Source: Chiloscyllium plagiosum
Taxonomy: Eukaryota
DNA length: 64,000 bases
Reading direction: 5' to 3'
NCBI RefSeq assembly: GCF_004010195.1
Contig: NC_057757.1
Location: forward strand, 2,123,940-2,187,939
A program made the translations under genes and the position numbers. This document shows positions 3,535 through 59,580 of this stretch, in pieces. Each line of letters starts with the position of its first letter. Position 1 is the stretch's first letter. Below the pieces are notes generated by a model. That model did no database searches and was not told where the DNA came from. It was given only the letters and a program-made list of their open reading frames with translations.

Positions 3535-5075
3535 ACAAAAAAATCACAACACCAGGTTATAGTCTAACTAGTTACCTGATGAAAGAGCAGCACTCTGAAA
3601 GTTAGGAGAACGTGAGGACTGCAGATCCTGGATATCAGAGTCAAAAGCATCATCACATTCCTAAAGAAGACCTTATGCTCGAAACATTGATTCTCCTGCT
3701 CTCGGATGCTGCCTGACCGACTGTGTTTTTCCAGCACCACACTTTTTGGCACTGAAAGCCAGAATTTCCAAATAAACCTGTTGGACTATAACCTGGTGTT
3801 GTGCAACTTTTAACTTTGTCCATCCCAGGCCAAGTGTTCTGTTGCCTGCCACTTCAACAGAACATCATATTCCCTATCAGTGAAACTATCAGATGAAAGG
3901 CTTAACAGACAATCAATTCTTCAATGTATAATTTCAGTTACATCACACTGCAAATTTTTGCTATAAATTCTGTGTTACGATTGAGCCCTCCACAATCACC
4001 TGATGAAGGAGTGTCGCTTCGAAAGCTAGTGTGCTTCCAATTAAACCTGTTGGACTATAACCTGGTGTTGTGTGATTTTTAACATCATATTCCCTAGCTA
4101 ACATCTGTCTCAGGGGCTTGCTGCAGTGCTCCAGCAAAGCAAAGCTCAAGCCGGAAGAACAGCACCTAATTTTCTCCTCGACGACCGATCAGCTCTCAGG
4201 ACCTAATATTGAGTTCATAGAAACATAGAAATTAGATGCAGGAGTAGGCCATTCAGCCCTTCGAGCCTGCACCACCATTCAGTATGATCATAGCTGATCA
4301 TGCTATTTCAGTATCCCATTCCCGCTATACCCCTAGATCCTTTCAGCTGCAAGAGCCATGTCAAACTCCTTCTTGACTATAATCGAATTGGCCCCAACAG
4401 CTTTCTGTGCGAGAGAATTCCACAGGTTCACAACTCTCTCTGAGTGAAGAAATTCTTCCTCATCTCAGTTCCCTCATTCTTAGTCCTTGATCCCTAGTTC
4501 CAGACCTCCCCAACATCAGGAACATTCTTCACACATCTAACTTGTCCAGTCCCATCAGGATTTTATATGTTTCTATGAGATCCCCCTTTATTCTTCTAAA
4601 TTCCAGCAAGTACAAGCCCAGTCGATCCAGTCTTTCATTGTCCGTTAGTCCTGCCATCCCAGGATTTGTGATAGGTCTGGGTGGGTTGCTCTTTGGAGGG
4701 TTGGTGTGGAGTTGTTGGGCCGAAGGGCCTGTTTCCATACTGTAGGAAATCTAATCTAACTGCAACATGACATCCCTACTCTTATACTCAAGCCAGGTTC
4801 AACAATTTTAGGGCCCTAGCACCTTGTCCCATGTCCTTACCCCAACCCACACATACACCAGGCCTTGTCATCTCATGGTCTACTACCACAAACCATCCCA
4901 ATGTCAACCATTCATGGTCCCCATTAGCAACTATTGATTCTCCCAGCTTGACAATTACCCCAGTCCTGGGGCTCCAAACCTTTCCTACAATCAGTTCTGA
5001 AGAAAAGCCACTGGACCTGAAAGGTTAATTCTGTTTTTACCTCCCCCTCCACATGCGCTGCTGAGTTTCTCCAGC
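3535..5075 (+). mobile_element. Cluster of nested Penelope-like fragments interrupted by a CR1/SINE insertion
   Basis: PLE endonuclease C-terminal-like remnant (EEQHLIF...PNIEF) at about 4130-4216, resuming near 4797; inner element 3877-4080 flanked by 16-bp TSD AACATCATATTCCCTA; antisense CR1 3' end at about 4217-4790. Confidence 0.6.
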
Positions 5076-6340: not shown

Positions 6341-7710
6341 TATGAAGTAGATGGGTTGCTAATCAAATGCATTGATTTGTCCTGGATCGTCTGAAGCCTT
6401 GACTGTTGTTGGAGCTGTATCTTTTCCAAGTAATTGGAGAGTATTCCATCATATCTCTGACTTGAGCCCTGTAGATAGCTCCAGGCACAGGGGGTTGGAG
6501 GGGGGAATATTTTAACCTTTGCAAGTTTGAAGGATATCTGCATTCTCATTAATTTTAGAGATTGTTGCATAATTAGAAATTGAAGGGAAAATCTGGTCTA
6601 TTTACAAATTTTAAGAGGTATACAAGAATGAGAATATCTGGACTCTTCATAGAGTTGTGTTTTTTGAGATGTCTAGACTAACAGTAATTTTCCTTGGATT
6701 TTATAATTTGAAGCATAAGAGGGTTATTAATAGTTCAATGAATGATAGGACTTTTGGAGGAACTTGGAAACTTTGTTTTCGGGTACGAAGTCTGTGAAAA
6801 ATGTGGATCTGTGGCTTTATGTATTCTATTTATTCATCTGAGGATATCTGGAATATTAGGTTTCGAATTGACCTTAAGTATTCCTAATTTGGGAGATAGA
6901 CCATTTTTAGATTTGTTGGACCTTCATTTTTTTTTTGTGTTTGTAAATCTTCTGACTGTTAAAGCATTGAGTTGTAGACAGACATGGTGCATTGTAGGCT
7001 GTTTGCAAAGCAGAAAAAAGTGACCGAAAGCTATATCACATTTTCTCCTTCCTATATATATTGCTTTCCCTCTTCCCCTCTGCTCAAGGTCAGTTCAGGA
7101 ATAATTACAAGACAAACCATCCCACTTATCACAATCGTTTATCCTCCATACATGACCCTTTCATCTTACCCTATTGACATGCCCTTATATTGCTTTCTCC
7201 TATAAGTACTCCTGTAGCTTCCTCTGAAAACTTATGCTACTTGGCTCAACTCCTCCTTGTGGGACTGAGTTCCACATTTTCCCCACTCTCTGGATAAAGA
7301 TATTTCTCCTAACACATCTCAATCTTCTAAAGGAAAGAGAAAAGCCCCCTTGTCCCCAAACTGATTAATTTCTTTCCTCAGATCCACCAGTGGTCAAATG
7401 CCTGACTGTGAAGGATCCTATTGCCCATCTCTTTATTCTTTGTTGAATTCCAATAATTTAAACAACTATTTATAGTAAATTGAGTCGGCTTGGGTAGTGA
7501 CATGTCATTTAAAAGGAGGAATTTTACAGATTTTGTACCAGATTGGATTTGTTCCAGATCTGGAGAAACTAGGAAAGAGGAATTCCTGATTGTACCAATG
7601 TTTATTGTAAAATCTGTTGCAGTGAACTATTTGTCTTGCTTCACGATCCAATTTGCTGAAAAAAAGAAGTCCCTCAACTTTCAGAAGGATGTACAGCACC
7701 AAGAAACGAA

Positions 7711-8292
7711 ATGCTGAACATTCGTAGCTTGCGCGCCAGATTTAGAAAACTGATAACTGGAGAAGTGTGTGGGTTGAACGCCAAAGAAGGAAGTATTGTG
7801 GCCGGACTGTTCATGTTGATGGTATCCATCATGCAGCTCACCTTTGAATCAGGGCATTTTCGTTACTTGAGGCCTGTGACTACTCCTGGCTCCATGAATC
7901 AAATTTCCAGACTTCAAATATACTGCATCATATCAATTATATTTGTCTTTTTCACTCTGATCGCAGTTATTGTCTTGTTCCTATCTATCTGGAAGGAGAT
8001 ATTCTGGGGAGTAGTAGGCTACATCGTTTGGATATTCTTATATGAGATTGTACAGATAAGCCTCCTGAGTTTGTCACTACCTGAGCAAGGTTTGTTCCCA
8101 AAAAGCGTGCAAGTGTTAGAATGGTTTGGGCTCATCATGCGTCTGCTTTCGCACATTTTCTGGATGATTTTTGTGACTGCACATGCAATAGACTTGTACA
8201 AAATCATCAGGAACACTGATGATCCCATGAAAAACAAGCGGAAGACTCCACCGAAGCTCAAATTTGCAAAGGTCAAGGAGCTGGGTGTGTAA
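7711..8292 (+). CDS. TMEM217: Transmembrane protein 217-like (about 4 TM segments), 193-aa uninterrupted ORF
   Basis: Motifs CGLNAKEGSIVAGLF, LTFESGHF, YIVWIFLYE and WFGLIMRLLSHIFWMIFV match remembered human TMEM217 (CGMTAKMGTVLSGVF, LIFEQKHL, YIVWIFFYE, WFGLVSRTVMHCFWMFFV); could be a paralog. Confidence 0.85.
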   Translation: MLNIRSLRARFRKLITGEVCGLNAKEGSIVAGLFMLMVSIMQLTFESGHFRYLRPVTTPGSMNQISRLQIYCIISIIFVFFTLIAVIVLFLSIWKEIFWGVVGYIVWIFLYEIVQISLLSLSLPEQGLFPKSVQVLEWFGLIMRLLSHIFWMIFVTAHAIDLYKIIRNTDDPMKNKRKTPPKLKFAKVKELGV

Positions 8293-15269: not shown

Positions 15270-17258
15270 TGAGTACAAGAGTCAGGATGTCATATTGCGG
15301 CTTTATAAGACTTTGGTTAGGTCACACTTCGAGTATTGTGTTCAATTCTGGTCACCATATTACAGGAACAATGTGGAGGCTTTGAAGAGGGTACAGAAAT
15401 GTTTACCAAGATGCTGCCTGGTTTAGAGGGTATGAGCTATAAGGAGAGGCAAGAAAAACTTGGGTTGTTTTGGATGTGAGTTTGCTTGCTGAGCTGGAAG
15501 ATTCAGTTTCAGACATTTCATCACCATACTAGGTAACATCATCAGTGAGCCTCCGGTGAAGCACTGGTGTTCTGTCCTGCTTTCTATTTATGTGTTTAGG
15601 CTTCCTTGGGTTTGTGATGTCATTTCTGCTTTTTGGTAGATGGGATCCAAATCAATGTGTTTGTTGAGAGTTCTGAATGGAATGCTATGCTTCTAAGAAT
15701 TCTCGTGCATGTCTCTGTTTGGCTTGTCCTAGGATGGATGTGTTGTCCCAGTCGAAGTGGTGTTCTTCCTCATCTGTATTTAAGGATACCAGTGATAGTG
15801 GGTCATGATAGTAGGTTTTTGTGGCAAGTTGATGTTCATGAATCATGGTGGCGAGTTTTCAGCCACTTGGTCCAAAGTAGTATTTATTACAGTCCTTGCA
15901 AGATATTTTGTAGATAATGTGCATTTTGCATGTTCTTTGTATAGGGTCTTTTAAGTTCATTAGCTGCTGTTTAAATGTGTTGGTTGGTTTGTGGGCTACC
16001 ATGATGCCAAGAGGCCTGAGTAGTCTGGTAGTCATTTCCGAGATGTCTTTGATGAAGGGTAAAGTGGTTAGGGTTTCTGAGTGCATTTTGTCTAGGTGTT
16101 TGGGTTTGTTGTTGAGAAATCAGCAGATTGTGTTTATTGGGTACCTGTTCTTCTTGAATATGCTATATAGGTGGTTTTCTTCTGCTGTTCATAGTTCCTT
16201 GGTGCTGCCGTGTGTGGTGCCTCATTGAAATAATGTCCGAATGCGGCTTTGTTTGTGGATGTTGGTATGATTGCTTAAGTAGTTAAGTATTTGATCCATA
16301 TGTGTGGTTTTCCTGCAGACGCTGGTTTGAAGTTCCCCGTTCCTATTGTGACATCTAGGAATGGCAGTTTGTTGTTGTTTTCCTCCTCTTTTTTGAGGAA
16401 GACTGCAAAGACTGTGCAGGAATTTAATAAACATTACTTTGGACAAACAGGTAGAAAACTAGCCACCAGGATTCATGAATGTCAGCTGGCCACAGAAAGA
16501 AATGACCCACTATCACTAGTATCCTTATATACAGATGAAGAAGAATACACTTTGACTGACACAAAACATCCATCCTAGTACAAACCAAACAAAGGCATGC
16601 ATGAGAATTCCTAGAAGCATGGCATTCCATCCAGAACTCTACCAACAAACACATTGATTTGGACCCCATCTACCATCCTCTGAAAAAGGAATCGAAATGA
16701 CATCACCAACCCAAAGAAACCTAAACACATAAATAAAAAGCGGGACAGAACACCAGTGATTTACCTAGTATGGTGATGAAACATCTGAAACTGAACCTTC
16801 CAGCTCAGCAAGCAAACTCACGTCCAGAACCTCAACCTGAGCTACAAATATTTTCAAAACTCGGGTTCTTTTCTCTGGAGCAATGGAGGCTGAGGGGAGA
16901 CTTCATAGAAGTCTATAAAATTATGAGAAACATAGATAGGGTTGAATCTTTTTCTCAGAGTTAAAACGTCTAAAACTAGGGGGCTTATATTTAAGGTGAG
17001 AGGGGGAAAAGTTCAAAGGCGTTGTGCGAGTTTTATACAGAGTGGTAGGAGTCTGGAACGTGCTACTAGAGGTGGTGGTAGTGGCAGAAATGAAAGGGGT
17101 GTTTAAGGGACTTTCAGATAAGCACAGGAATATGCAAGGAATGGAGGCATATGGACCAACAGCAGGCAGGCAGGAAGTATTGGTTTAATTTGGTGTTCTA
17201 TTCGGTACACCATTATGGGCTGAAGGCCTGTTCCTGTGCTGTACAGTTCTGTGTTCCA
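15270..17258 (+). mobile_element. CR1 3' fragment split by a Penelope-like insertion
   Basis: CR1 sequence stops at about 15471 (aaaacttgggttgtttt) and resumes at 16857 (aaaactcgggttcttttctctggag). Confidence 0.75.
15472..16856 (-). mobile_element. Truncated Penelope-like element with an inverted duplicate of its 3' end
   Basis: Minus-strand RT C-terminus (RKTTHMDQILNYLSNH...RTLF) and GIY-YIG-like IIYKISCKDCNKYYFG; inverted copy at about 16408-16856; about 17-bp TSD with 2 mismatches; hammerhead motif at 15509-15548 (-). Confidence 0.85.
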
Positions 17259-32443: not shown

Positions 32444-34610
32444 AAATGAAAGGTCTGCTCATTTCTTGATTGATTGTTGGAGGGCATGGGGAGGTCAGAG
32501 CTCTCATCATGACCCATTTGTGGGGGCTGGGGTAACCAGAATTAGATCAAACCTTCATAATTGGTCTAACTAAAGTTGGCAGCCATTAGTCCCAATCAGC
32601 TGTCCTACTAAACCAAACCAAACCAAACCAATCATCCATTCTTATCCGCCCGCCCGCCCGCCCACCCACCCAAGAAGGTACTGGTGAGCTGCCTTCTTGA
32701 ATCGCTGCAGTCCATTTGCTGTGGGTATGCTGTAAGGGAGGATCTTCCAGGATTTTGACCCAGTGACACTGAAGGAATGGTGATGTACTTCCAAATCAGC
32801 GTGGTGCATCTGCTGCCCTTGACCTTCCAGATGCCAGAGGTCACAAATTTGTAGAAGGAGCCTTGCTGCAGTACATCCATTGAGCATTGGTGGTGGAGGG
32901 AGGGAGTGTTTGTGATGTAGTGGGCTGCTTTGTCCTGGATGGTGTCAAACATCTTTGAGTGTTGTTGGAGCTGCACCTATTCAGGTAAGTGAAGAGTATT
33001 CCTTCTCATCCTGACTGTTGACTTGTAGATGGTGGAAAGGTTTGGGAGACAGTGAATCACTTACAGCTGTGGTATTCTCACATTTGTCTTTGCATCTTGA
33101 TTTCCCCACATTACCAGGGAAACTCAGCTATTTGATGAGGAGAGTTACCCCATTAGCAAGCACAAACAGAGACTGAAAGACCTGTCCTACAAAACCATCC
33201 ACTTGGCAATGTCAAACTTGTAGACTTTTTCCATCAATTACTCTGACAAGCCCTTTCAATACATCCACTGGTGTCCCTCTGACATAACATCACCAAGTCC
33301 TGATCACACCATCACCTTTTAAAGCTCATTGACACATCCAGTAATGCCTTGATTTTAAAAAATCCCATACTTGTGTTCAAATTCTTCTTCTGTCTCATTG
33401 CTTCTCTCTAATCCTGGTCATCTTCCCTAGCCCCTATGACTATCCAAGATCTCTGCACTCTGCCAACTCTGGCCTCTTGAGCATCCTCCAATTCCCATTG
33501 GCAGCCACACCTTCAGCTGGCTGGACTGTGAGCTCTAGAATTCCGTCCCTCAACCTCTCTCCTTTAAGGTGTTCCTCTGTCCACTGTATCTCCTAGTGTG
33601 GCTTGGTGTTAAATTCTGTTCGAAAACTGGAATTGGGGTCTCATAACGAATCCATAACAGGCCAACTCCTCTTGCATAATGCAAGCCTGATAGCTCCATC
33701 TCTCGGAAGTGTCACACAGGGTTGCCAACTGTATTCCTGGAAGTTTCTTAACCACCTCCAAGTTCCTGCTTTGGTTGACTAATCCTCCACTCCTCACACT
33801 CCCAACTCCCACAGGCAACCAAAAAGCGGGTAGAATCTGTACTCCCTTCAGCCCAGTGACACTCAGTACTCTTAAGTGTCTTACAACTGGTTTAAAAAGA
33901 AACACTGGGAGGGGAGAGAGAGAAAATAAGAGTGAATAAAAATCCTGTGAGATTTCCTTACCGGACTAGCCCCCAGCAGTTTAGTTAATCTGATTCTTGA
34001 GGTTGTGAGATAATCCTGGTTTCTCTGGCGAGGCCTAACCTAGAGTGATTAGCCGAAGATGCTTCCTTATAGCTGATTAATTTTAAAACCATTCCTCAGG
34101 ACGTTTAAGAAATGACATCCTTTGCATTCCACCAGGTAGGCGACCCATCCCAGAAACTCTGGAATATTAACCTCAACCCCTTTGCTGAACCTGAAGTGAC
34201 AGAAAGTGGCCATTCGGCCCAATATGAGAAGCATTTTCCCCATCCACCCTGCTCCTTTTCATTGGCCCTGCAACATAGTTTTACAAGTTCCTTTCTGCCT
34301 CCACCCCCCCCCCCCCCCCCATTTCAGTCAGTTTATTCCAGATTGCAACTCAAAATTATTTCACCTCGCTTCCCCATTCCTGCAGTGACAAGTCACTGAT
34401 GCTGTACATTTAAACACAGATATCAAATTTTGATCTCATTTGTGGGCTCCAGACAGAGCACGAGCAACGAAACCTAATGACAATCAACGAGTAACAGCCG
34501 ACACGGTCGAGTCTTTTGAGACAATCAGCCTCAGAGCTCTCCCCGGTTTCTACACGAACACATTCTGTCACTTGCAAAGTGCCACTCTGAGGGTAAGGTT
34601 GCAAACTCAC

Positions 34611-34769
34611 ATCCAGTGACCTGCCGTCGCCCTGGTCACCGCACTCCGCCCTTAGCCCCTCCAGCTCCCTCCTGAGCCTCGCCACTTCGGCTGACTGCAG
34701 GAGCTGCGTGGCCAGGCACAGCAAGACTCCGGCCAGAGCAGCGAGCCCCAAGGAGACCGGCGAAACCAT
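34611..34769 (-). CDS. TNFSF13: TNFSF13-like exon 1: MVSPVSLGLAALAGVLLCLATQLLQSAEVARLRRELEGLRAECGDQGDGRSLD
   Basis: ATG at 34769 with an in-frame upstream stop; hydrophobic anchor followed by EVARLRREL (APRIL: ELQSLRREV); GAT|GTGAGT donor in phase 0. Confidence 0.85.
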
Positions 34770-34854
34770 CTGCTTCCCACTCCTCTGCAGGCGGCCGAGC
34801 GAAGTGAGAGCAGGGACCAAGCCGCTGGCAGAGCAGCTGGATTCTGGCCCAAAG

Positions 34855-35015
34855 TGGGAGGGAAACTTTCACTAAGCCAGGTCCTAGTTTCACGAATTGC
34901 TGAACAGGCAGCCTAAAACAATCAAATAACACACATACACACGGCGCATAGCATTATAATCCAGGTTAAACCCTTGATTTGTTTTTACATTGCAGCTGCA
35001 AATTCTGATTGGTTG
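34855..35015 (-). promoter_or_regulatory. Candidate proximal promoter of the APRIL-like gene
   Basis: CCAATCAG on - (ATTGG at 35008-35012), TATA-like ATTATAAT (~34953-34960), kB-like GGGAAACTTTC (34860-34870); motif evidence only. Confidence 0.35.
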
Positions 35016-35957: not shown

Positions 35958-37055
35958 CCTTGTAGATGCTGGAATTTAAATTCAATTTTAAAAAGAAAAG
36001 TCTGTAATTGGAAGGTAGTCCTAGCGATTGTGGCCATGAGACTATTGTCAGAAAAATCCATCTGGTTTTGCTAATGGGAAGGTTTGGCCATCTTTACCTG
36101 GTCTGGTCTACACGTGACTCCCAGACCCACAGTGATGCAGGTGACAGTCACCCGTCCTGTCTGACAAGCCGCATCCCCGCTACACTTGTTTTTCTGTCCG
36201 CAGCACACCTGACTCTTGACTGTTCTCTGAAACAGCCGAGCACATTGCAATTCCCAAATATCTTCCCATCGTGGCCCTGGTTTGGTGCTTGAAATTTGCT
36301 GAGAACCCAGAACCCTGTGGGGGATCTGAGTGGGGGTATCCCAGTGTATGCAGGGCTGGGGATGGAGATGACAACCCTCCCTATTCATGTACTTATCCAA
36401 ATGTCTTTGAAATGTTGTAATGTGCCTGCATCCATCACTTCCTCAGGAAGTTCATTCCACACACAGACCACCCTTGTGTAAATATTTTGCCCTCCATGTC
36501 ATTTCTAAATCTCTCTCCTCTCACCTTAAAAATATGCCCCCTAGTCTTGAAATACCCCACCCGAGGGGGAAAAACACCTACCATTAACTCTATCCATGCC
36601 TCTCATGATTTTGTAAACCTCTATAACATCACCTCTCAATCTCCTACATTCCAGTGAAAAAAGTCTCTGCCTATCCAGCCTTTCTTTATAATTCAAACTT
36701 TCATTCCCAGCGACACCCTGGTAAATTTCTTCTGAACCCTCTCCAGCTTAATAATATCCTTCCTATAACAGGGCAACCAGAACTGGACACAGTGCTCCAG
36801 AAGGGGCCTCACCAACGTCCTGTACAACTTCAACATGACGTCCCAACTCCTGTACTCAAAAGGTCTGAGCAATGAAGACAAGCTTGCTAAATGCCTTCTT
36901 AACCACTCTGTCTATATGTGAGGCAAATACATATGTGTACCTCTAAGTCCCTCTGTTCTACAACCCTACCCAAGACCCTACCATTAATTGTATAAGTCAT
37001 GCCCATGTTTATTGCCTCAAAATACATTACTTTGCATTTATCCAGATTGAACTCA

Positions 37056-37279
37056 GAAAGTGAGGACTGCAGATGCTGGAGATCAGAGTCGAGAGTGTGG
37101 TGCTAGAAAAACACAGCGGGTCAGGCAGCATCCGAGGAGCAGGAAAATCAACGTTTCGGCAGCAGTCCTTCATCAGGAATTTGAAATTCCTGATGAAGGG
37201 CTTATGCCCGAAACGTCGATTCTCCTGCTGCTCAGATGCTGCCTAACATGCTGTGCTTTTCCAGCACCACACTCTCAAC
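37056..37279. mobile_element. 224-bp palindromic PLE-derived element with a hammerhead motif on each strand
   Basis: 15-bp TSD TCCAGATTGAACTCA at 37041-37055 and 37280-37294; arms of about 96 bp centred on G37183. Confidence 0.85.
37186..37222 (+). ncRNA. Minimal type-I hammerhead ribozyme motif
   Basis: CTGATGA at 37190-37196, extra A, stem II GGGC/GCCC with TTAT loop, GAAA at 37210-37213, GTC triplet at 37215-37217; stem I weak, stem III minimal. Confidence 0.6.
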
Positions 37280-38544
37280 TCCAGATTGAACTCAATCTGC
37301 TGTACCTTTTCCAGTCTTCCCTGCGCCCTGGACATAAAACAGATTATCCTTTAGTCAGTACCACCAAACTCATCCCTGCCTGCAGAGAAATTGTCCAGTT
37401 GGAAGATCGGGCCCTGACTGAGACCTACAGCAAGACCCAAAGGCAAGTCTGAGGCTTCCGCACCCTTTAGAAGTCAGCTTATCCAACACTCTGATTTCCT
37501 TGTACCCTCAATCCAGCTAAGCTCCACTCAGCCTTCACCGCATAGTTCGACTCTTCCAGCCACCCACTACTGACCTATGTAAACTCCCAGAATCCTAAAT
37601 CCTTCGATTCAAAGATACTCATCGTCCTATTTCAATCCATCTATTAGTTACTCTACCCTCCCTCAGTCCCACACCCATAGTCCTCCCCTCCCTGAGATCT
37701 CTGCCCTCTTCCAATTCTGGCCTCTTGCTCATCATAGGTTTCTGTCTCACTACAATTGGTGGCCGTACACTCGGCTGCCTAAGCCTCAAGCCATGGAATG
37801 ACCCCTTTTAACCCTTTCTCTGTCTCTTTATCACTTTTCTCCATTCGGACACTTCGGACTCCTTGACCAAAGCCTCGTGATGTCACTTAATACTGTGTTA
37901 TGTCTGAGGACTCTCCTGTGAGGTCCCTTTTGGGAGCTTTTAACACATGAAAGGTGATGTATAAATGCAGGATGTTGTTGCAAGGTCATGATCTCTAACT
38001 CAACTTTAAGCTGTCACTTCTTGTTTGCATGGCCCTCTCTAAACATCACGACTTAAACCTTTCTTAACCTTCCTCCTGACCCCTGCCAAATAACAAAAAC
38101 GTGCACACTATAGAGTTCCATCCAATATCGTTTCTTTCAAATGCAAGCAAAGCAATTTTTTTAAGAAGTAACAATAACTGATGTCTGGTAACTAATAAGT
38201 GGAAAAAAGTTATTACTAAACAAGTTCCTTAAGTTCAAATTGTGTTCCAACCTGGGAACATCCTGAGAGCAAAATACCAGAGACATCAAATGTAACAGCT
38301 GAAAGCGAAGGCTGCGGTGTCGGAAACCCAGCCACCAGTTGTTGCACCGCAAGATCCCAAAACATGGTAAACACAGGATTATTTGTTTTCATGATGTTGG
38401 GGTATGAATGTTGGCCTGGAAATGACAGCTAGCAACTCTCCCCAGTCTTCTCTAAAACAGTGAGGGGGTGTCAGAGGCTCTGTTTAACATCTCTTGACTA
38501 TGCTGCATATCTTCAGTGTTTCACTGAATTCTCTTTATTTGCAC

Positions 38545-39767: not shown

Positions 39768-40400
39768 TCAAGGTTTGTGCGAAGATTTGTAGCTCGGGTG
39801 CTCGTTGTTGTGGTTCTGTTCACCGAGCTGGGAATTTGTGTTGCAGACGTTTCGTCCCCTGTCTAGGTGACATCCTCAGTGCTTGGGAGCCTCCTGTGAA
39901 GTGCTTCTGTGATGTTTCCTCTGCCATTTGTAGTGGTTTGTATCTGCCACTTCCGGTTGTCAGTTCCAGCTGTCCGCTGCAGTGGTCGGTATATTGGGTC
40001 CAGGTCGATGTGCTTGTTGCTTGAATCAGTGGATGAGTGCCATGTCTCTAGGAATTCCCTGGCTGTTCTCTGTGTGGCTACTAAGGATAGCTGAGTTTGA
40101 CTGGGAGAACACTACTATTATAGGACAAGCCAAACAGAGAACAGCCAGGGAATTCCTAGAGGCATGGCACTCATCCACAGATTCAATCAATAAGCACATC
40201 GACCTGGACCCAATATACCGACCACTGCAGCGGACAGCTGGAACTCATAACCGGAAGCGGCAGATTCAAACCACTACAAATAGCGGAGGAAACATTACAG
40301 AAGCAATCCACAGGAGGCTCCCAAGCAGTGAGAATGTCACCCAGACAGGGGACAAAACGTCTGCAACACATTCCCAGCTTGGCGAACAGAACCACAACAA
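39768..40400. mobile_element. 633-bp palindromic Penelope-like 3'-end insertion
   Basis: 12-bp TSD CACTCCATCTAT at 39756-39767 and 40401-40412; arms at about 39805-40079 and 40128-40400; endonuclease C-terminus FDWENTTIIGQAKQRTAREFLEAWHS on +. Confidence 0.88.
39843..39882 (-). ncRNA. Minimal type-I hammerhead ribozyme motif with an intact core
   Basis: Minus strand reads gca CTGAGGA t GTCACC tagaca GGGGAC GAAAC GTC tgc; 3-bp stem I (GCA/TGC). Confidence 0.65.
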
Positions 40401-50864: not shown

Positions 50865-51385
50865 CAACAATCCTCCCACAGTGCCCGCTCCCTCAATACT
50901 GACCCTCCAACAATAGCCACTCAGTCAGTGCTGACCCTCTGACAGCGCCCGCTCCCACAGCGCTGACTCTCCGACACTGCAGCGCTCCCTCAGCACTGAC
51001 CATCCAACACTGTGATGCTCCCTCAGTGCTGACCCTCCAACACTACGAAGCTCCCTCAGCACTGACCCTCTGCCAGTGTAGCGCTCCCATAGTGCTGACC
51101 TTCCGACAGTGCCTGCTCCCTCAGCACTGACCCTCTGCCAGTGTAGCACTCCCATAGTGCTGACCTTCCGACAGTGCCTGCTCCCTCAGCACCGACTCTC
51201 TGCCAGTGCAGCATTCCCTCAGCGCTGACCCTCCGCCAGTGTGTTGCTCTCTCAGCACTGACCCCCCTGACAGTGCCTGCTCCGTCAGCACTGACTCTCC
51301 GACAGCACCTGCTTCCTCAGCATTGACCCTCCTACAGTGTGGCGCTCCCTCAGCGCTGACCCTCCAACAGTGCCCACTCCCACAG
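50865..51385. repeat. Tandem repeat of about 31-33 bp (cagtgc..gctccctcagcactgaccctccga)n in the TWEAK last intron
   Basis: About 15 diverged units visible. Confidence 0.85.
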
Positions 51386-51495
51386 ACAGTGAGGTTTAAA
51401 CCTGTTTGACCAGTACTTAAAACGAAAATATTTTTTGGACAATGTTCAGCTGGAAAGGTGGGGTGGGGTGGGGGTGGAGGGGAGAGGTGTCTTGC

Positions 51496-51617
51496 CTGAC
51501 TGTATATGTAGTAGACTCCCTCCCGGTGTACGGTGAATCTGGCCGTCTTGTTGTTGTAGGTCACTGCACTTTTGGTCGTCTCAAGTGGGCATTCTAACCA
51601 CTGCCTGATGATCCCAC
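51496..51617 (-). CDS. TNFSF12: TNFSF12 penultimate exon: GGIIRQWLECPLETTKSAVTYNNKTARFTVHREGVYYIYSQ
   Basis: aaacag| acceptor in phase 1, 122 nt, ends CAG|GCAAGA (GC donor); aligns with human YNRQIGEFIVTRAGLYYLYCQ. Confidence 0.9.
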
Positions 51618-52169
51618 CTGTTTGTGGAAAGTGAGAGAGAAAAACAAAAGGTGAAGCTTCACCACTTTATCAGAGAGAGTGGTACACAGTGAGATTATTG
51701 ATGTGAAACACTGTTCCTATTCGATGTTGAAGTCCTCACCCCGGTCTCCAAATCCCACTGTGCCCTTGCTCCCTCGGATCCTGGTTCTCTCCCGTAAACT
51801 CTGCAGGGTCTCAGTGTTCCTCCAATTCTTTCTCTGCCACGCCCTGTCTGGGGCTCACCCTGTGGTATCCCATCCTAAACCTCTCCCTATGTTCCTTCAG
51901 GCGTCCCCACCTTGGCCAAGCCTTTGGTTACCTGTCCTCATATCTCCTTTTGTGGTTCACTGTTGAGTTTTGATGATTCTTGGCATCATCAAGAGCCCTG
52001 GAGATGCTTTGCAATGCCAAAAACTCCATTCAAATGCAAGTGGCCAGGCGTTGTTGTTGTGCACAGAACATTTCCAAGATACCTCTTTCCTTCACCATCC
52101 AGGAGGGATTTCCGCTACCTTGAGAAGCTGGGCCCGTTGCCTTTCCAGCCCAGAAAGTGAAGATTTAAT

Positions 52170-53994: not shown

Positions 53995-54137
53995 GAGAAA
54001 GTGAGGACTGCAGATGCTGGAGAGTCAGATCGAAAAGGGTGACCCTGGAAAAGCATAGCAGGCCAGGCAGCGTCCGAGAAGCAGGAGAGTCAACGTTTCG
54101 GGCATGAGCCCTTCATCAGGAATTTCTGAAGGGCTTA
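53995..54137 (-). mobile_element. PLE 3' tail with an intact hammerhead core
   Basis: Minus strand reads attc CTGATGA a GGGC TCAT GCCC GAAAC GTT gac (about 54089-54123). Confidence 0.7.
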
Positions 54138-56081: not shown

Positions 56082-56464
56082 TTTGCCTGAACCTCCCCAG
56101 CTCACTGAACGACGCCATAGGCTGCCTTTGAGGGGGAGGTAACAAGGGGGAAAATGTGACAAACTCTGTCATTACTGAATGCCCATCTGTCAAAGTGAAG
56201 CTACCAGCTACTGAACGGGAACAGAAAAGTTAGAACGATAAGACATTGGAGCAAAAGTAGGCCATCCAGCTCAATGAGGCTGCTCTGCCTGTCAATGAGA
56301 TAGTAGCTAATCCTGAACTCTACCTGCCAAGGCATGTGACTGGGTCTAAAACCTGCGGAAAACGCGAGGTGGGTTATTTCAGCCTGAACGCAGAAGGGGT
56401 TTGTTCAGCCAGAAGGTGAGGAATCTTCAAAATTCTGAGAGTGACAGCCCTTGACATCAAGGAG

Positions 56465-57050
56465 GAGAAAGTGAGGACTGCAGACGCTGGAGATCAAAGT
56501 CGAGGATGTGGTGCAGGTCAGGCAGCATCTGAGGAGCAGGAGAATCGACGTCTCGGGCAAAAGCCCTTCATCAGGAATGAGGCTTGTGAGCGGAGAGGGT
56601 GGTGAGATAAATGGGAGGGGGTTTGGAGCGGTAGCTGGGAGTGCGATAGAGAGATAGAGTTAGGGGGTGATGGTGATAAGTTGGAGAGGAGGGTGGAACG
56701 GATAGGTGGGAAGGAAGATGGACAGGTAAACAGGGCGGTGCTGAGTTGGAAGGTTGGATCTGGGATAAGGTTGGGGAGGGGGGGGTGGAAAAATGTGGAA
56801 ACTGGTGAAATCCACATTGACGTCGTGTGGTTGGAGAATCCCAAGGTGGAAAATGAAGCGTTCTTCATCCAGGCATCGGGGGATGGAGGAGGCCCAGGAC
56901 CTGCATATCCTTGGCAGAGTGGTAGGGGAAGTTGATGTGTTCGGCCACGGGGCGGTGAAGTTGGTTGGTGTGGGTGTTCCAGAGATGTTCTCTGAAGCGT
57001 CAAGGCGGTGTCTGACAGACTGGCGTCAAGAAGCCTGAGAAAAACTGAAG
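56465..57050 (-). mobile_element. Penelope-like element 3' part (endonuclease C-terminus, pyrimidine-rich UTR, pLTR)
   Basis: Minus-strand EERFIFHLGILQPHDVNVDFTSF remnant joined to the same tail as the 37056 element; hammerhead with GAAA changed to GAGA. Confidence 0.7.
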
Positions 57051-57075
57051 GCAATGGCTGTCAGGGAGCAAACTC

Positions 57076-58085
57076 TTGATGGTTGGAGTCATACATGGGA
57101 AGATGCTCATGGGTGTTGGACGTCAATTATCTCAGCTCCAGGACATCTCTGCAGGGGTTCCTGAGGGTAGTGTCTTAGGCCCGACCATCTTCAGCTGCTT
57201 CATCATTGACCTTCCCTCCACCATAAGGTCAGAAGTGGGGAAGTTCGCTGATGATTGCACAATATTCAGCACAATTCGCCACTCAGATAATGAAGCAGTC
57301 CGTGTCCAAATGCAACGAGATCAGGACAATATCCAGGCTTGGGTTGACAAGTCGCAAGTAACATTTGTACCACACAAATGCCACACTAAGACCATCACCA
57401 TTAAAACACAATCTAACCACTGCCCCTTGACATTCAATGGTGTTACCATCACTGAATCCCACACTATCAACATTGTGGGGGATACCATTGGCCAGAAGCA
57501 AACTGGACTCTCCACATGAACACAGCGGCTACAAGAGCAGGTCAGAGGCTGGGAATCCTGCAGCAAGTAACTCCCCTCCTGACTCCCAAAAGCCGGTCCA
57601 CCATCAACAAGGCACAAGTCAGGAGTGTGAGGGAATACTCCCCACTTGTCGTGCATGGGGGCAGCTCCAACAACACTCAAGAAGCTCAACACCATCCAGG
57701 GACAAAGTAGCCCCCCAGTTGATTGGCTTCACATCTACAAACATACCACTCCCTCCCCCACCAACACTCAGTAGCAGCAGTTTGTACCATCTACAAGATG
57801 CACTGCAGCGACTCATTGCAACTATCATCGACAACACCTTCGGAAGACATGACCTTGACATTGAGGAGAACAAGGGCAGCAGATATAAAAGGAACAACAG
57901 TCCCTGCAGGTTCCCTTCTTCGCCCCTCTCCAGCCTGACTGGGAAATATATCAACCGTTCCCCAACAGCATTGCAGGTCTCCCCTAAGCAAACAGACTGC
58001 AGCAGTTCAATAGGGCTGCTTGACACCTTTCTGCAGGGTGAAAAAGCATGGCTAATTAAATGCTGGGTGAAGTGATTCCCACATC
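57076..58085 (+). mobile_element. CR1/L2-group LINE RT and 3' fragment (second family)
   Basis: GVPEGSVLGPTIFSCFI.DLP...FADDCT; related tails at about 19085-19370, 32680-33050 and 47975-48450. Confidence 0.75.
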
Positions 58086-58858: not shown

Positions 58859-59580
58859 TACAAATGTTCCCTCGCTCTCTCTGCAGTTGGCCAACTGGCA
58901 TTGACAAGGTATCACTGTGACACAATTAAGAACTGAACACTCCCCTCTCCCAAACCCAATGTCCCAGCAATTCATACCCATTCCTGACATCTCAATGTGC
59001 ACAGGAACTGTTGCGCTCCAGGTGTAGACAGGTGCATTTCTGTAGCATCTTTCATGACACGGCAAAAACCCCAGAGGCAATCAAGGGTCTTTTTTTCTGA
59101 ATTGAAGCAACTCCTACAATGAATGGAGTGGGGCCTCCGTTTTGAGCACTGCATGATCCCACAACCTGATGACAATCGGCTGAAATCTTTCCGAATGGCG
59201 ATGGCAGAGTTGTGAATATTAGGCCCAGGACACATTGGGGCAGGGGGTGGAGGGGAAACTCATCTGCTGCTGCCCCTCAGTTTTATATTCTCTCAGCATC
59301 AGCATGGATGACTCCGTGAAGATGAACTGGATTCTGTCAACGCTTTGTCTCTCTAGTCTTCCAGCAAGCAGGAGAGTCACCAACAATAATTCCTGTCCAT
59401 TGACTAACTCCCAGTTAATGATTCAAACTCACCCTGCAGTGTCAAATGGATGGGAATTTATCTCTGAGGCAGGATGCCCAGGTTCTAATCCAGACTGCTC
59501 CAGAGATGTGTCATAATGTCTCAGAACAGACTGGAGAGAAAATATGTAAAAAGGCAACACCATCAAAAGTAGCTACCTAC

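What the first reader, a model, noticed from the sequence alone, without database searches (positions are those of the whole stretch)
37041..37294. 224-bp TSD-flanked palindrome carrying back-to-back hammerheads
Seen: a perfect 15-bp TSD and arms of about 96 bp meeting at GGAATTT-G-AAATTCC. The + strand reads CTGATGA a GGGC ttat GCCC GAAAC GTC and the - strand reads CTGATGA a ggactgctgcc GAAAC GTT; there is no coding sequence. In either direction the antisense arm is transcribed first, so the ribozyme would be locked in a long hairpin. A similar inversion point appears at about 54120-54137 and near 3655-3660. Inference: either a non-autonomous, ribozyme-bearing hairpin element mobilised by PLEs, or a recurrent fold-back product of PLE integration just 5' of the ribozyme. 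It could also be a source of small RNAs.
Basis: partly seen in the sequence, partly recalled or inferred. Interest (0 to 1): 0.75.

Follow-up and report, generated by a model that had tools for sequence, protein, structure and literature searches.

The report
Twin-primed Penelope stub palindrome
This 224-base mirror-image insert is real and is one of an estimated hundred thousand or so short head-to-head stubs of a Penelope-like jumping gene in this genome; each was likely built on landing from two short DNA copies of the start of the element's RNA, so it is probably not a self-spreading ribozyme element but a footprint of how these elements make their long-unexplained inverted ends.

Summary
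Observation largely confirmed: perfect 15-bp TSD, head-to-head arms, a minimal hammerhead motif on each strand. Missed: the left arm has an extra 30-nt tail, the arms are only ~86% alike, and the minus-strand stem II is damaged. The arm is the pLTR/5'UTR of a Neptune-type Penelope-like element (RT + GIY-YIG). In 1.36 Mb of blind genome sample, 57 such palindromes (estimated 1-2 x 10^5 genome-wide) vary in length and centre, so this is not a fixed family. Of 42 with classifiable ends, 41 pair one tail end with one end ~30 nt inside; none has two tails. In several insertions each arm holds sequence the other lacks, which argues against fold-back. 5' ends pile up at the hammerhead's upstream edge, not at its cut site; near-full-length copies also start there. 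Best model: both nicked target strands prime at the two known PLE start sites on uncleaved RNA, run off its 5' end, and join head-to-head. The layout is published (inverted pLTR + one-sided tail); I did not find this mechanism in print. The scan found the same thing many times before on other DNA.

The parts
37041..37055 (.). Target-site duplication, left copy (15 bp)
   Evidence: 100% identical to 37280-37294; family TSDs are 10-18 bp, mode 14
37056..37085 (-). 30-nt one-sided 'tail' of the long arm (to about arm position h128; h1 = A of ATTCCTGA)
   Evidence: Unpaired; matches the tail end (h126-132) used by 47 of 57 sampled palindromes; the 30-40-bp tail is described in PMC8557442 and PMC3846280
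37056..37180 (-). Long arm: PLE pLTR/5'UTR segment from h1 to the tail end
   Evidence: the same segment follows GIY-YIG + 3'UTR and precedes the ORF start
37150..37176 (-). Minimal hammerhead core on the long arm, stem II damaged, predicted cut after GUU
   Evidence: motif scan; fold
37181..37185 (.). Head-to-head junction with 5 bases (TTGAA on +) not matched by any parent upstream sequence seen; inferred non-templated or repair fill
   Evidence: parent upstream 8-mers listed; this centre is unique among 22 scored similar copies
37186..37279 (+). Short arm: same segment from h1 to the inner end site (~h95-97), with 2-nt microhomology into the TSD
   Evidence: inner ends of sampled palindromes cluster at h85-103
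37190..37217 (+). Minimal type I hammerhead core on the short arm (CUGAUGA, 4-bp stem II, GAAAC-GUC with palindromic ACGU), predicted cut after 37217
   Evidence: architecture as in PMC4209133
37280..37294 (.). Target-site duplication, right copy
56461..57100 (-). 5'-truncated parent-type PLE copy: decayed GIY-YIG C-terminus, 3'UTR, then the same arm with tail
   Evidence: translation and alignment
53997..54137 (-). Sister insertion: full arm with a ~17-nt inverted remnant
3608..3743 (.). Decayed sister inverted pair, most of the tail arm deleted

Best explanation
The insert is the shortest size class of head-to-head insertion of a Neptune-type Penelope-like retrotransposon, likely built at the target from two separate cDNAs rather than copied from an earlier palindrome. 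Shown: both arms are the element's pLTR/5'UTR segment; one ends at the tail site and the other ~30 nt inside; they meet at the hammerhead's 5' edge; a 15-bp TSD flanks them. Inferred steps: (1) the element's endonuclease nicks both target strands ~14-15 bp apart; (2) each nick primes reverse transcription at one of two staggered start sites (h~97 and h~131) on uncleaved RNA from one source; (3) when the 5'UTR copy is used, both cDNAs end near h1, most likely because the RNA begins there; (4) the two cDNA ends anneal through 2-4 nt microhomology or are joined with a few filler bases, and each is completed on the other. The ribozyme motifs are passengers, predicted to be locked in the hairpin.
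For: Parent: the arm lies ~870-960 nt downstream of RT in the same orientation in many RT-bearing loci. One 754-aa frame has RVT_1 (E 9e-8) and GIY-YIG (E 2.5e-4, just under the cut-off) with a CX4CxxC linker. The arm also runs into the ORF start. Abundance: 57 palindromes in 1,361,428 bases, estimated 1.1-1.9 x 10^5 per genome. TSDs in 34 of 55, against 0 of 110 mismatched flank pairs. Ends: 41 of 42 classifiable pairs are tail + inner end, 20.9 expected if independent (P 8e-12). All 15 longer or rearranged inverted insertions with a TSD (145-2955 bp) have one tail end and one shorter end. Both sites also serve as 3' ends of unpaired arms (59 tail, 52 inner of 164). Against fold-back: the tail-less arm reaches further 5' than the tail arm in 14 versus 5 short palindromes (27 even; P 0.06), and in 5 of 6 resolvable long ones (169 vs 80, 1755 vs 978, 454 vs 0, 194 vs 0, 927 vs 288). 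5' stop: 67 of 96 palindrome arms and 47 of 74 arm-only copies end at h-5 to h+10, versus 6 and 2 at h29-38 around the cut site. Of 40 copies with the pLTR-ORF junction, 16 reach h<=6; 12 stop at h1-6 and none extends more than ~30 nt further. Arms share subfamily alleles (9.7% differ versus 32.1% shuffled). In vitro, a lizard PLE cuts and extends both strands, starts at two sites bounding the tail, is predicted dimeric and uses uncleaved RNA (PMC11167929).
Against: No direct evidence for a transcription start at h1: the one informative RNA run showed no pile-up of molecule starts (single-cell polyA data). An extra G from a cap is not significant (21 of 65, P 0.11). The short-palindrome asymmetry is only P 0.06 and could include later deletions. 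Four of the 40 junction copies (3 events) start at h30-31, next to the predicted cut, so some templates may be cleaved. This insert's own arms differ more than most (5 of 18 diagnostic sites), so age or two templates cannot be told apart for it. A few 'stops' at h1 may be diverged upstream bodies that I failed to recognise. The in vitro data come from a Poseidon element, not a Neptune one. In D. virilis Penelope the hammerhead lies after an intron that starts 46 nt past the start site, not at the start (PMC2377424, PMC4209133).
Confidence: 0.7

Rival explanations
1. Two cDNAs as above, but they stop at h1 because of an intrinsic block (RNA structure, bound protein, or the pyrimidine-rich tract upstream), not because the RNA begins there.
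For: 37 sampled arms continue 35-400+ nt upstream, so the site is not absolute; no start pile-up and no significant cap G.
Against: Copies that carry the pLTR-ORF junction never extend more than ~30 nt past h1 (16 reach it), unlike the broad 35-400 nt spread of 3' copies. The site reads TC-ATT-CC, an initiator-like sequence (consensus recalled), which is weak evidence in a pyrimidine-rich tract.
Confidence: 0.2
2. Fold-back: one tail-primed cDNA self-primes near h1 and copies itself until it is cut or stops near h97.
For: Arms of one insertion share subfamily and rare alleles. Junctions sit on short inverted microhomologies. Self-priming was proposed for palindromic junctions in PMC3846280.
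Against: A fold-back copy cannot reach further 5' than its template, yet the tail-less arm does so in 14 vs 5 short and 5 of 6 long insertions. The inner end is also a common 3' end of unpaired copies.
Confidence: 0.12
3. A non-autonomous hairpin element (MITE-like or retrozyme-like) that is itself transcribed and re-inserted by PLE proteins.
For: Very high copy number; TSDs; one microhomology junction recurs in 5 of 57; RNA reads cross such junctions.
Against: Lengths run from 117 to 300 bp. There are 10 different spacers among 14 scorable random copies and 20 among 22 close copies. The recurring junction has different outer ends (h90, 66, 95, 67, and one cut by the sample edge). The same end pattern holds up to 2955 bp and in near-full-length copies. 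No head-to-tail repeat at this locus.
Confidence: 0.06
4. This copy is a host-retained hairpin used for small RNA production or gene regulation.
For: Strong hairpin; weak Rfam miRNA-type matches; it lies between exons that resemble TNF-family genes.
Against: The Rfam scores are far below gathering thresholds (37 vs 97 bits). The arms have drifted apart by ~14%, which is more than in most sister copies.
Confidence: 0.03

Closest known systems
Typical insertion unit of endonuclease-bearing Penelope-like elements: inverted 5'-truncated pLTR, 30-40-bp tail at one end, TSD, palindrome at the head-to-head junction (PMC3846280, PMC8557442; passages read)
   Same: Head-to-head arms, one-sided 30-nt tail, variable TSD, hammerhead in the pLTR; the parent has RT + GIY-YIG with a CX2-5CxxC linker (Neptune/Nematis type).
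   Different: No ORF or body at all; junctions concentrated within ~15 nt at the hammerhead's 5' edge; about 10^5 copies; TSD mode 14 bp versus 8-10 bp in the rotifer examples.
PAc (Anolis Poseidon) in vitro system (PMC11167929; parts 1-2 of 4 read, supplements not seen)
   Same: Two RT start sites bounding the tail, both strands extended, hammerhead near the ORF start, uncleaved RNA as template.
   Different: Different clade. The text I read does not explain inverted copies or report that the two ends are coupled, one per site. Here the ORF starts ~37 nt after the tail, not inside the hammerhead.
Minimal hammerheads of metazoan PLEs (PMC4209133; parts 1-2 of 4 read)
   Same: Core boxes, unpaired base before stem II, palindromic helix III needing a dimer; that paper already notes opposite-strand pairs 100-700 bp apart in Schistosoma.
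   Different: Here the two motifs are back-to-back ~14 nt apart and predicted to be sequestered; one is damaged.
Non-LTR retrozymes (bioRxiv 10.64898/2026.07.22.740005, part 1 of 5 and passages; PMC7229834, listing only)
   Same: Non-coding, hammerhead-bearing, derived from PLE pLTRs.
   Different: Retrozymes are head-to-tail tandem units; this is head-to-head with no fixed unit.
LINE-1 twin priming (recalled, no call)
   Same: Both target strands prime on the RNA, the cDNAs join by microhomology, and an inversion forms inside a TSD.
   Different: In L1 the two cDNAs copy adjacent, non-overlapping parts; here both copy the same ~95 nt from fixed start sites ~30 nt apart.

Membership tests
EN+ Penelope-like element insertion | Parent ORF with RT and C-terminal GIY-YIG linked to this terminal segment | tested here: met
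EN+ Penelope-like element insertion | Inverted 5'-truncated copy, head-to-head, with a 30-40-bp tail at one end | tested here: met
EN+ Penelope-like element insertion | Variable-length TSD | tested here: met
   15 bp here; 10-18 bp in 34 of 55 sisters, 0 of 110 controls
Neptune clade | CX2-5CxxC linker plus CCHH in the endonuclease | tested here: met
   Motifs seen in the translation; definition from PMC8557442; the linker is shared with Nematis
Neptune clade | RT phylogeny with named Neptune elements | not tested
   No named reference sequences were fetched
Minimal type I hammerhead of PLEs | Core boxes, stem II, palindromic helix III | tested here: met
   Met for the + arm; stem II damaged on the - arm; helix I pairs only weakly
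Minimal type I hammerhead of PLEs | Self-cleavage as a dimer | not testable with these tools
   Needs an in vitro assay; the core is predicted paired in the hairpin; no Rfam hammerhead match
Non-LTR retrozyme | Head-to-tail tandem units each with a hammerhead | tested here: not met
   Head-to-head at this locus
Non-LTR retrozyme | Circular RNA form | not testable with these tools
   No suitable reads
Self-propagating non-autonomous hairpin family (MITE-like) | Fixed length, centre and ends across copies | tested here: not met
LINE-1-type twin-priming inversion | Inverted and direct parts copy non-overlapping parts of the RNA | tested here: not met
   Both arms copy the same segment; it works like twin priming but is not the L1 product
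miRNA precursor families (Rfam) | Score at the gathering threshold | tested here: not met
   37.1 vs 97 and 31.7 vs 90 bits

The most novel reading that the evidence does not exclude
Penelope-like elements integrate by obligate two-site twin priming. A dimeric enzyme primes both nicked strands on one uncleaved RNA, one at each end of the tail, and the 5'UTR copy is the default template, so most events leave 100-130-nt run-off stubs or their palindromes. This one rule would explain the inverted pLTR, the one-sided tail and the mass of solo hammerheads in PLE-rich genomes, and it would put the hammerhead at the first nucleotides of the transcript.
Probability: 0.5. Interest if true: 0.65.

Novelty: new member of a known kind. 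Interest (0 to 1): 0.4.

Why it matters
As an object it is ordinary: one of about 10^5 stubs of a known insertion layout. Its value is statistical. PMC8557442 calls the formation of tandem/inverted structures an undefined part of the PLE cycle, and these stubs give sharp predictions for the existing in vitro system: coupled ends (one per start site), both nicks needed, and a stop at the RNA 5' end rather than at the ribozyme cut. About 10^5 hairpins of ~200 bp are also a large potential source of dsRNA, which was not tested here.

Tried and rejected
Rfam: no hammerhead family match, only sub-threshold miRNA-type hairpin hits. Two different RNA templates as the rule: rejected, since arms share subfamily alleles; it remains possible for this copy. 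TSD versus arm divergence as a clock (2.4% vs 8.1%): not used, because TSD detection favours perfect pairs. Ribozyme cleavage as the main 5' boundary: rejected, with a possible minor peak. Cleavage upstream of CUGAUGA in another topology: rejected on pairing rules (my inference). Extra cap G, a lead from an earlier finding: 21 of 65, P 0.11, inconclusive. Sequencing-run search: no RNA holder listed as on record among the indexed holders. Of two raw RNA runs from one sample, one gave 1632 reads on a parent copy and the other none; the two contig runs are only guessed to be RNA. Whether the insert lies in an intron was not determined; a genome-wide TNF family search did not list the window's exons. 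The first 30 genomic hits were chosen by likeness to the query and were not used for frequencies. Literature searches found no paper on these stubs or on twin priming in PLEs. One search listed 3 papers with both terms, seen as listings only, none on this subject by title. Supplements (e.g. Fig. S2 of PMC11167929) were not seen and may bear on novelty; most subscription papers are not searched.

Full report
Observation. A perfect 15-bp duplication (37041-37055, 37280-37294) flanks 224 nt whose halves are 86-88% complementary around a 1-nt loop. The RNA hairpin has z = -16. Hammerhead core motifs lie at 37190-37217 (+) and 37176-37150 (-), and in both full transcripts CUGAUGA is predicted paired. 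Three points were missed: the left arm is 127 nt against 96 nt, leaving a 30-nt tail; the minus-strand stem II is damaged; and the sites near 54120 and 3655 are degenerate sisters. Rfam gave no hammerhead match. The genome is 3.56 Gb; that it is a shark is my recollection from the repeat content and comes from no call.

What the arm is. In the window, 56461-57100 (-) carries a decayed GIY-YIG C-terminus, a 3'UTR and then the same arm. An RT fragment from a sampled locus found 61,644 candidates, and in many of the 40 loci examined the arm lies ~870-960 nt downstream of RT on the same strand. One 754-aa frame matches RVT_1 (E 9e-8) and GIY-YIG (E 2.5e-4, 21.7 bits against a cut-off of 22.6) and has the CX4CxxC linker and CCHH motif. 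PMC8557442 assigns that linker to the Neptune and Nematis clades (passages); no tree was built. Walking upstream, locus L246 shows the arm's tail running into an ORF that starts ~37 nt later. So the arm is both the 5'UTR and the terminal pLTR segment of a Penelope-like element. I number it from h1, the A of ATTCCTGA.

Family survey. I fetched 140 stretches of 10 kb at round coordinates on the large contigs without prior inspection (1,361,428 non-N bases). A profile of the arm found 278 hits: 57 head-to-head pairs and 164 unpaired. This extrapolates to 1.1-1.9 x 10^5 palindromes, including some older relatives. Lengths run from 117 to 300 bp. TSDs of 10-18 bp (mode 14) were found in 34 of 55 with full flanks, and in 0 of 110 mismatched flank pairs. 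Centres vary: 10 spacers among the 14 random copies with both anchors intact, and 20 among 22 scorable close copies (of 30); this window's centre occurs once. The commonest junction (5 of 57) is a 3-nt microhomology with different outer ends.

Ends. Unpaired arms end at two sites, the tail (59 of 164) and ~30 nt inside (52 of 164); 53 end elsewhere, many in older relatives. In palindromes the sites are coupled. Of 42 pairs with both ends at one of these sites, 41 are tail + inner, 1 inner + inner and 0 tail + tail, against 20.9 discordant expected (P 8e-12). The other 15 pairs had an eroded or intermediate end; none had two tails. All 15 longer or rearranged inverted insertions with a TSD (145-2955 bp) also have one tail end and one shorter end. 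The 224-bp object is thus the short end of a continuous series.

Two cDNAs or fold-back. Arms of one insertion share subfamily alleles (72 of 741 diagnostic sites differ, 9.7%, versus 32.1% on shuffling, minimum 27.3% in 500), so they come from one source. This insert is among the most diverged (5 of 18 diagnostic, 5 of 52 other, 2 of 10 CpG sites). A fold-back copy of a tail-primed cDNA cannot reach further 5' than its template. Yet among 46 tail-bearing palindromes without N, the tail-less arm reaches >= 8 nt further in 14, the tail arm in 5, and 27 are even (P 0.06). Among 10 long inverted insertions examined, 6 were resolvable and in 5 the tail-less arm holds more body (169 vs 80, 1755 vs 978, 454 vs 0, 194 vs 0, 927 vs 288; the exception is 35 vs 48); 2 had gaps and 2 had other DNA between the arms. 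Later deletions could produce some of this, but not a bias in this direction.

Where they stop. Among arms within 15% of a reference copy, 67 of 96 palindrome arms and 47 of 74 arm-only copies have their 5' end at h-5 to h+10, and only 6 and 2 at h29-38 around the predicted cut at h32/33. 37 further arms continue 35-400+ nt upstream. A few apparent stops may be diverged bodies, and profile boundaries erode in old copies. Of the 40 best matches to the pLTR-ORF junction (younger subfamilies than this copy), 16 reach h<=6. Of these, 12 stop at h1-6, several with an inverted arm; one extends ~29 nt and three (one shared form) ~17 nt; none extends further. Four (3 events) start at h30-31 and the rest are truncated further in. 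That is the pattern expected if the RNA begins near h1, and the context TC-ATT-CC resembles an initiator (consensus recalled). Direct support is lacking. RNA reads from one single-cell run lie on both strands, cross head-to-head joints at h1, and have 96 loose ends at h1 with mixed upstream sequence, but show no start pile-up. An extra G at -1 is seen in 21 of 65 (P 0.11).

Mechanism. Shown: identity of the arms, coupling of ends, junction position, TSD. Inferred: both target strands are nicked and prime at the two start sites on uncleaved RNA; on the 5'UTR copy both cDNAs run off near h1 and join by microhomology or filler bases. PMC11167929 (parts 1-2 of 4) reports for a Poseidon element that both strands are cut and extended, that RT starts at two sites bounding the tail, and that hammerhead cleavage is dispensable. 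It also reports that RNA downstream of the start sites is required, which would favour priming on the copy followed by the ORF (my inference). Confidence by step: integration by-product rather than family ~0.9, two cDNAs ~0.75, RNA start as the stop ~0.6.

Relation to what is known. The layout is published: inverted 5'-truncated copy, one-sided tail, TSD and palindromic head-to-head junctions (PMC3846280 and PMC8557442, passages), and opposite-strand minimal hammerhead pairs (PMC4209133, parts 1-2 of 4). PMC3846280 explains the palindromes by self-priming on an antisense template. Seven searches found no account of these stubs or of twin priming in PLEs; supplements were not seen. It fails membership of retrozymes (no tandem units) and of fixed hairpin families. 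The scan's earlier notes (one search returned none) report the same kind of object many times, in this and other genomes, with much the same reading. I had formed the reading before looking; they are not independent evidence.

Verdict. A real feature and a new member of a known kind of PLE insertion, of modest interest as an object (0.4). It is useful because the population of copies turns the open question of how PLE inverted ends form into specific tests.

Noticed in passing
L274, L282, L287 (G000 C19, C20, C4): The same head-to-tail tandem unit of 224 nt (17 nt of upstream sequence + arm h1-131 + ~76 nt of ORF start) occurs at three loci, two of them with an inverted arm upstream; a retrozyme-like tandem derivative that may itself have been propagated.
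   Followed up: no
L279, L281, L299/L306: Three independent near-full-length copies begin at h30-31, beside the predicted hammerhead cut, with none between h7 and h29; possibly a minor class of cleaved templates.
   Followed up: partly
window 40039-40168 and 39846-39879: A second long near-perfect hairpin, inside a decayed frame resembling the endonuclease end of another (Poseidon-type, recalled) PLE, with a hammerhead-like motif on the - strand; a similar motif is at 15512-15545.
   Followed up: no
window 3576-3603, 4000-4028, 4997-5026, 59166-59187: Further hammerhead-like cores with other stem II sequences, probably from other PLE families.
   Followed up: no
window 51121-51666 (-) and 34410-34868 (-): An exon with a Pfam TNF match (E 7.7e-5) and a transmembrane-type exon (BAFF/APRIL-like by recollection) flank the insert at a distance; the gene structure was not worked out.
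   Followed up: partly
window 7660-8292 (+): Open frame matching DUF4534 (E 1.5e-23).
   Followed up: no
L246:1486-2208 (-); G000 C15 near 4.035 Mb and C32 near 37.688 Mb: The N-terminal part of the PLE ORF holds a proline-rich 12-residue tandem repeat that has expanded into kilobase arrays at some loci.
   Followed up: no
arm h120-h136, e.g. L246:2890-2905 (-): The tail ends in a pyrimidine tract followed shortly by AG, just before the ORF start; it could be a splice acceptor (inference).
   Followed up: no
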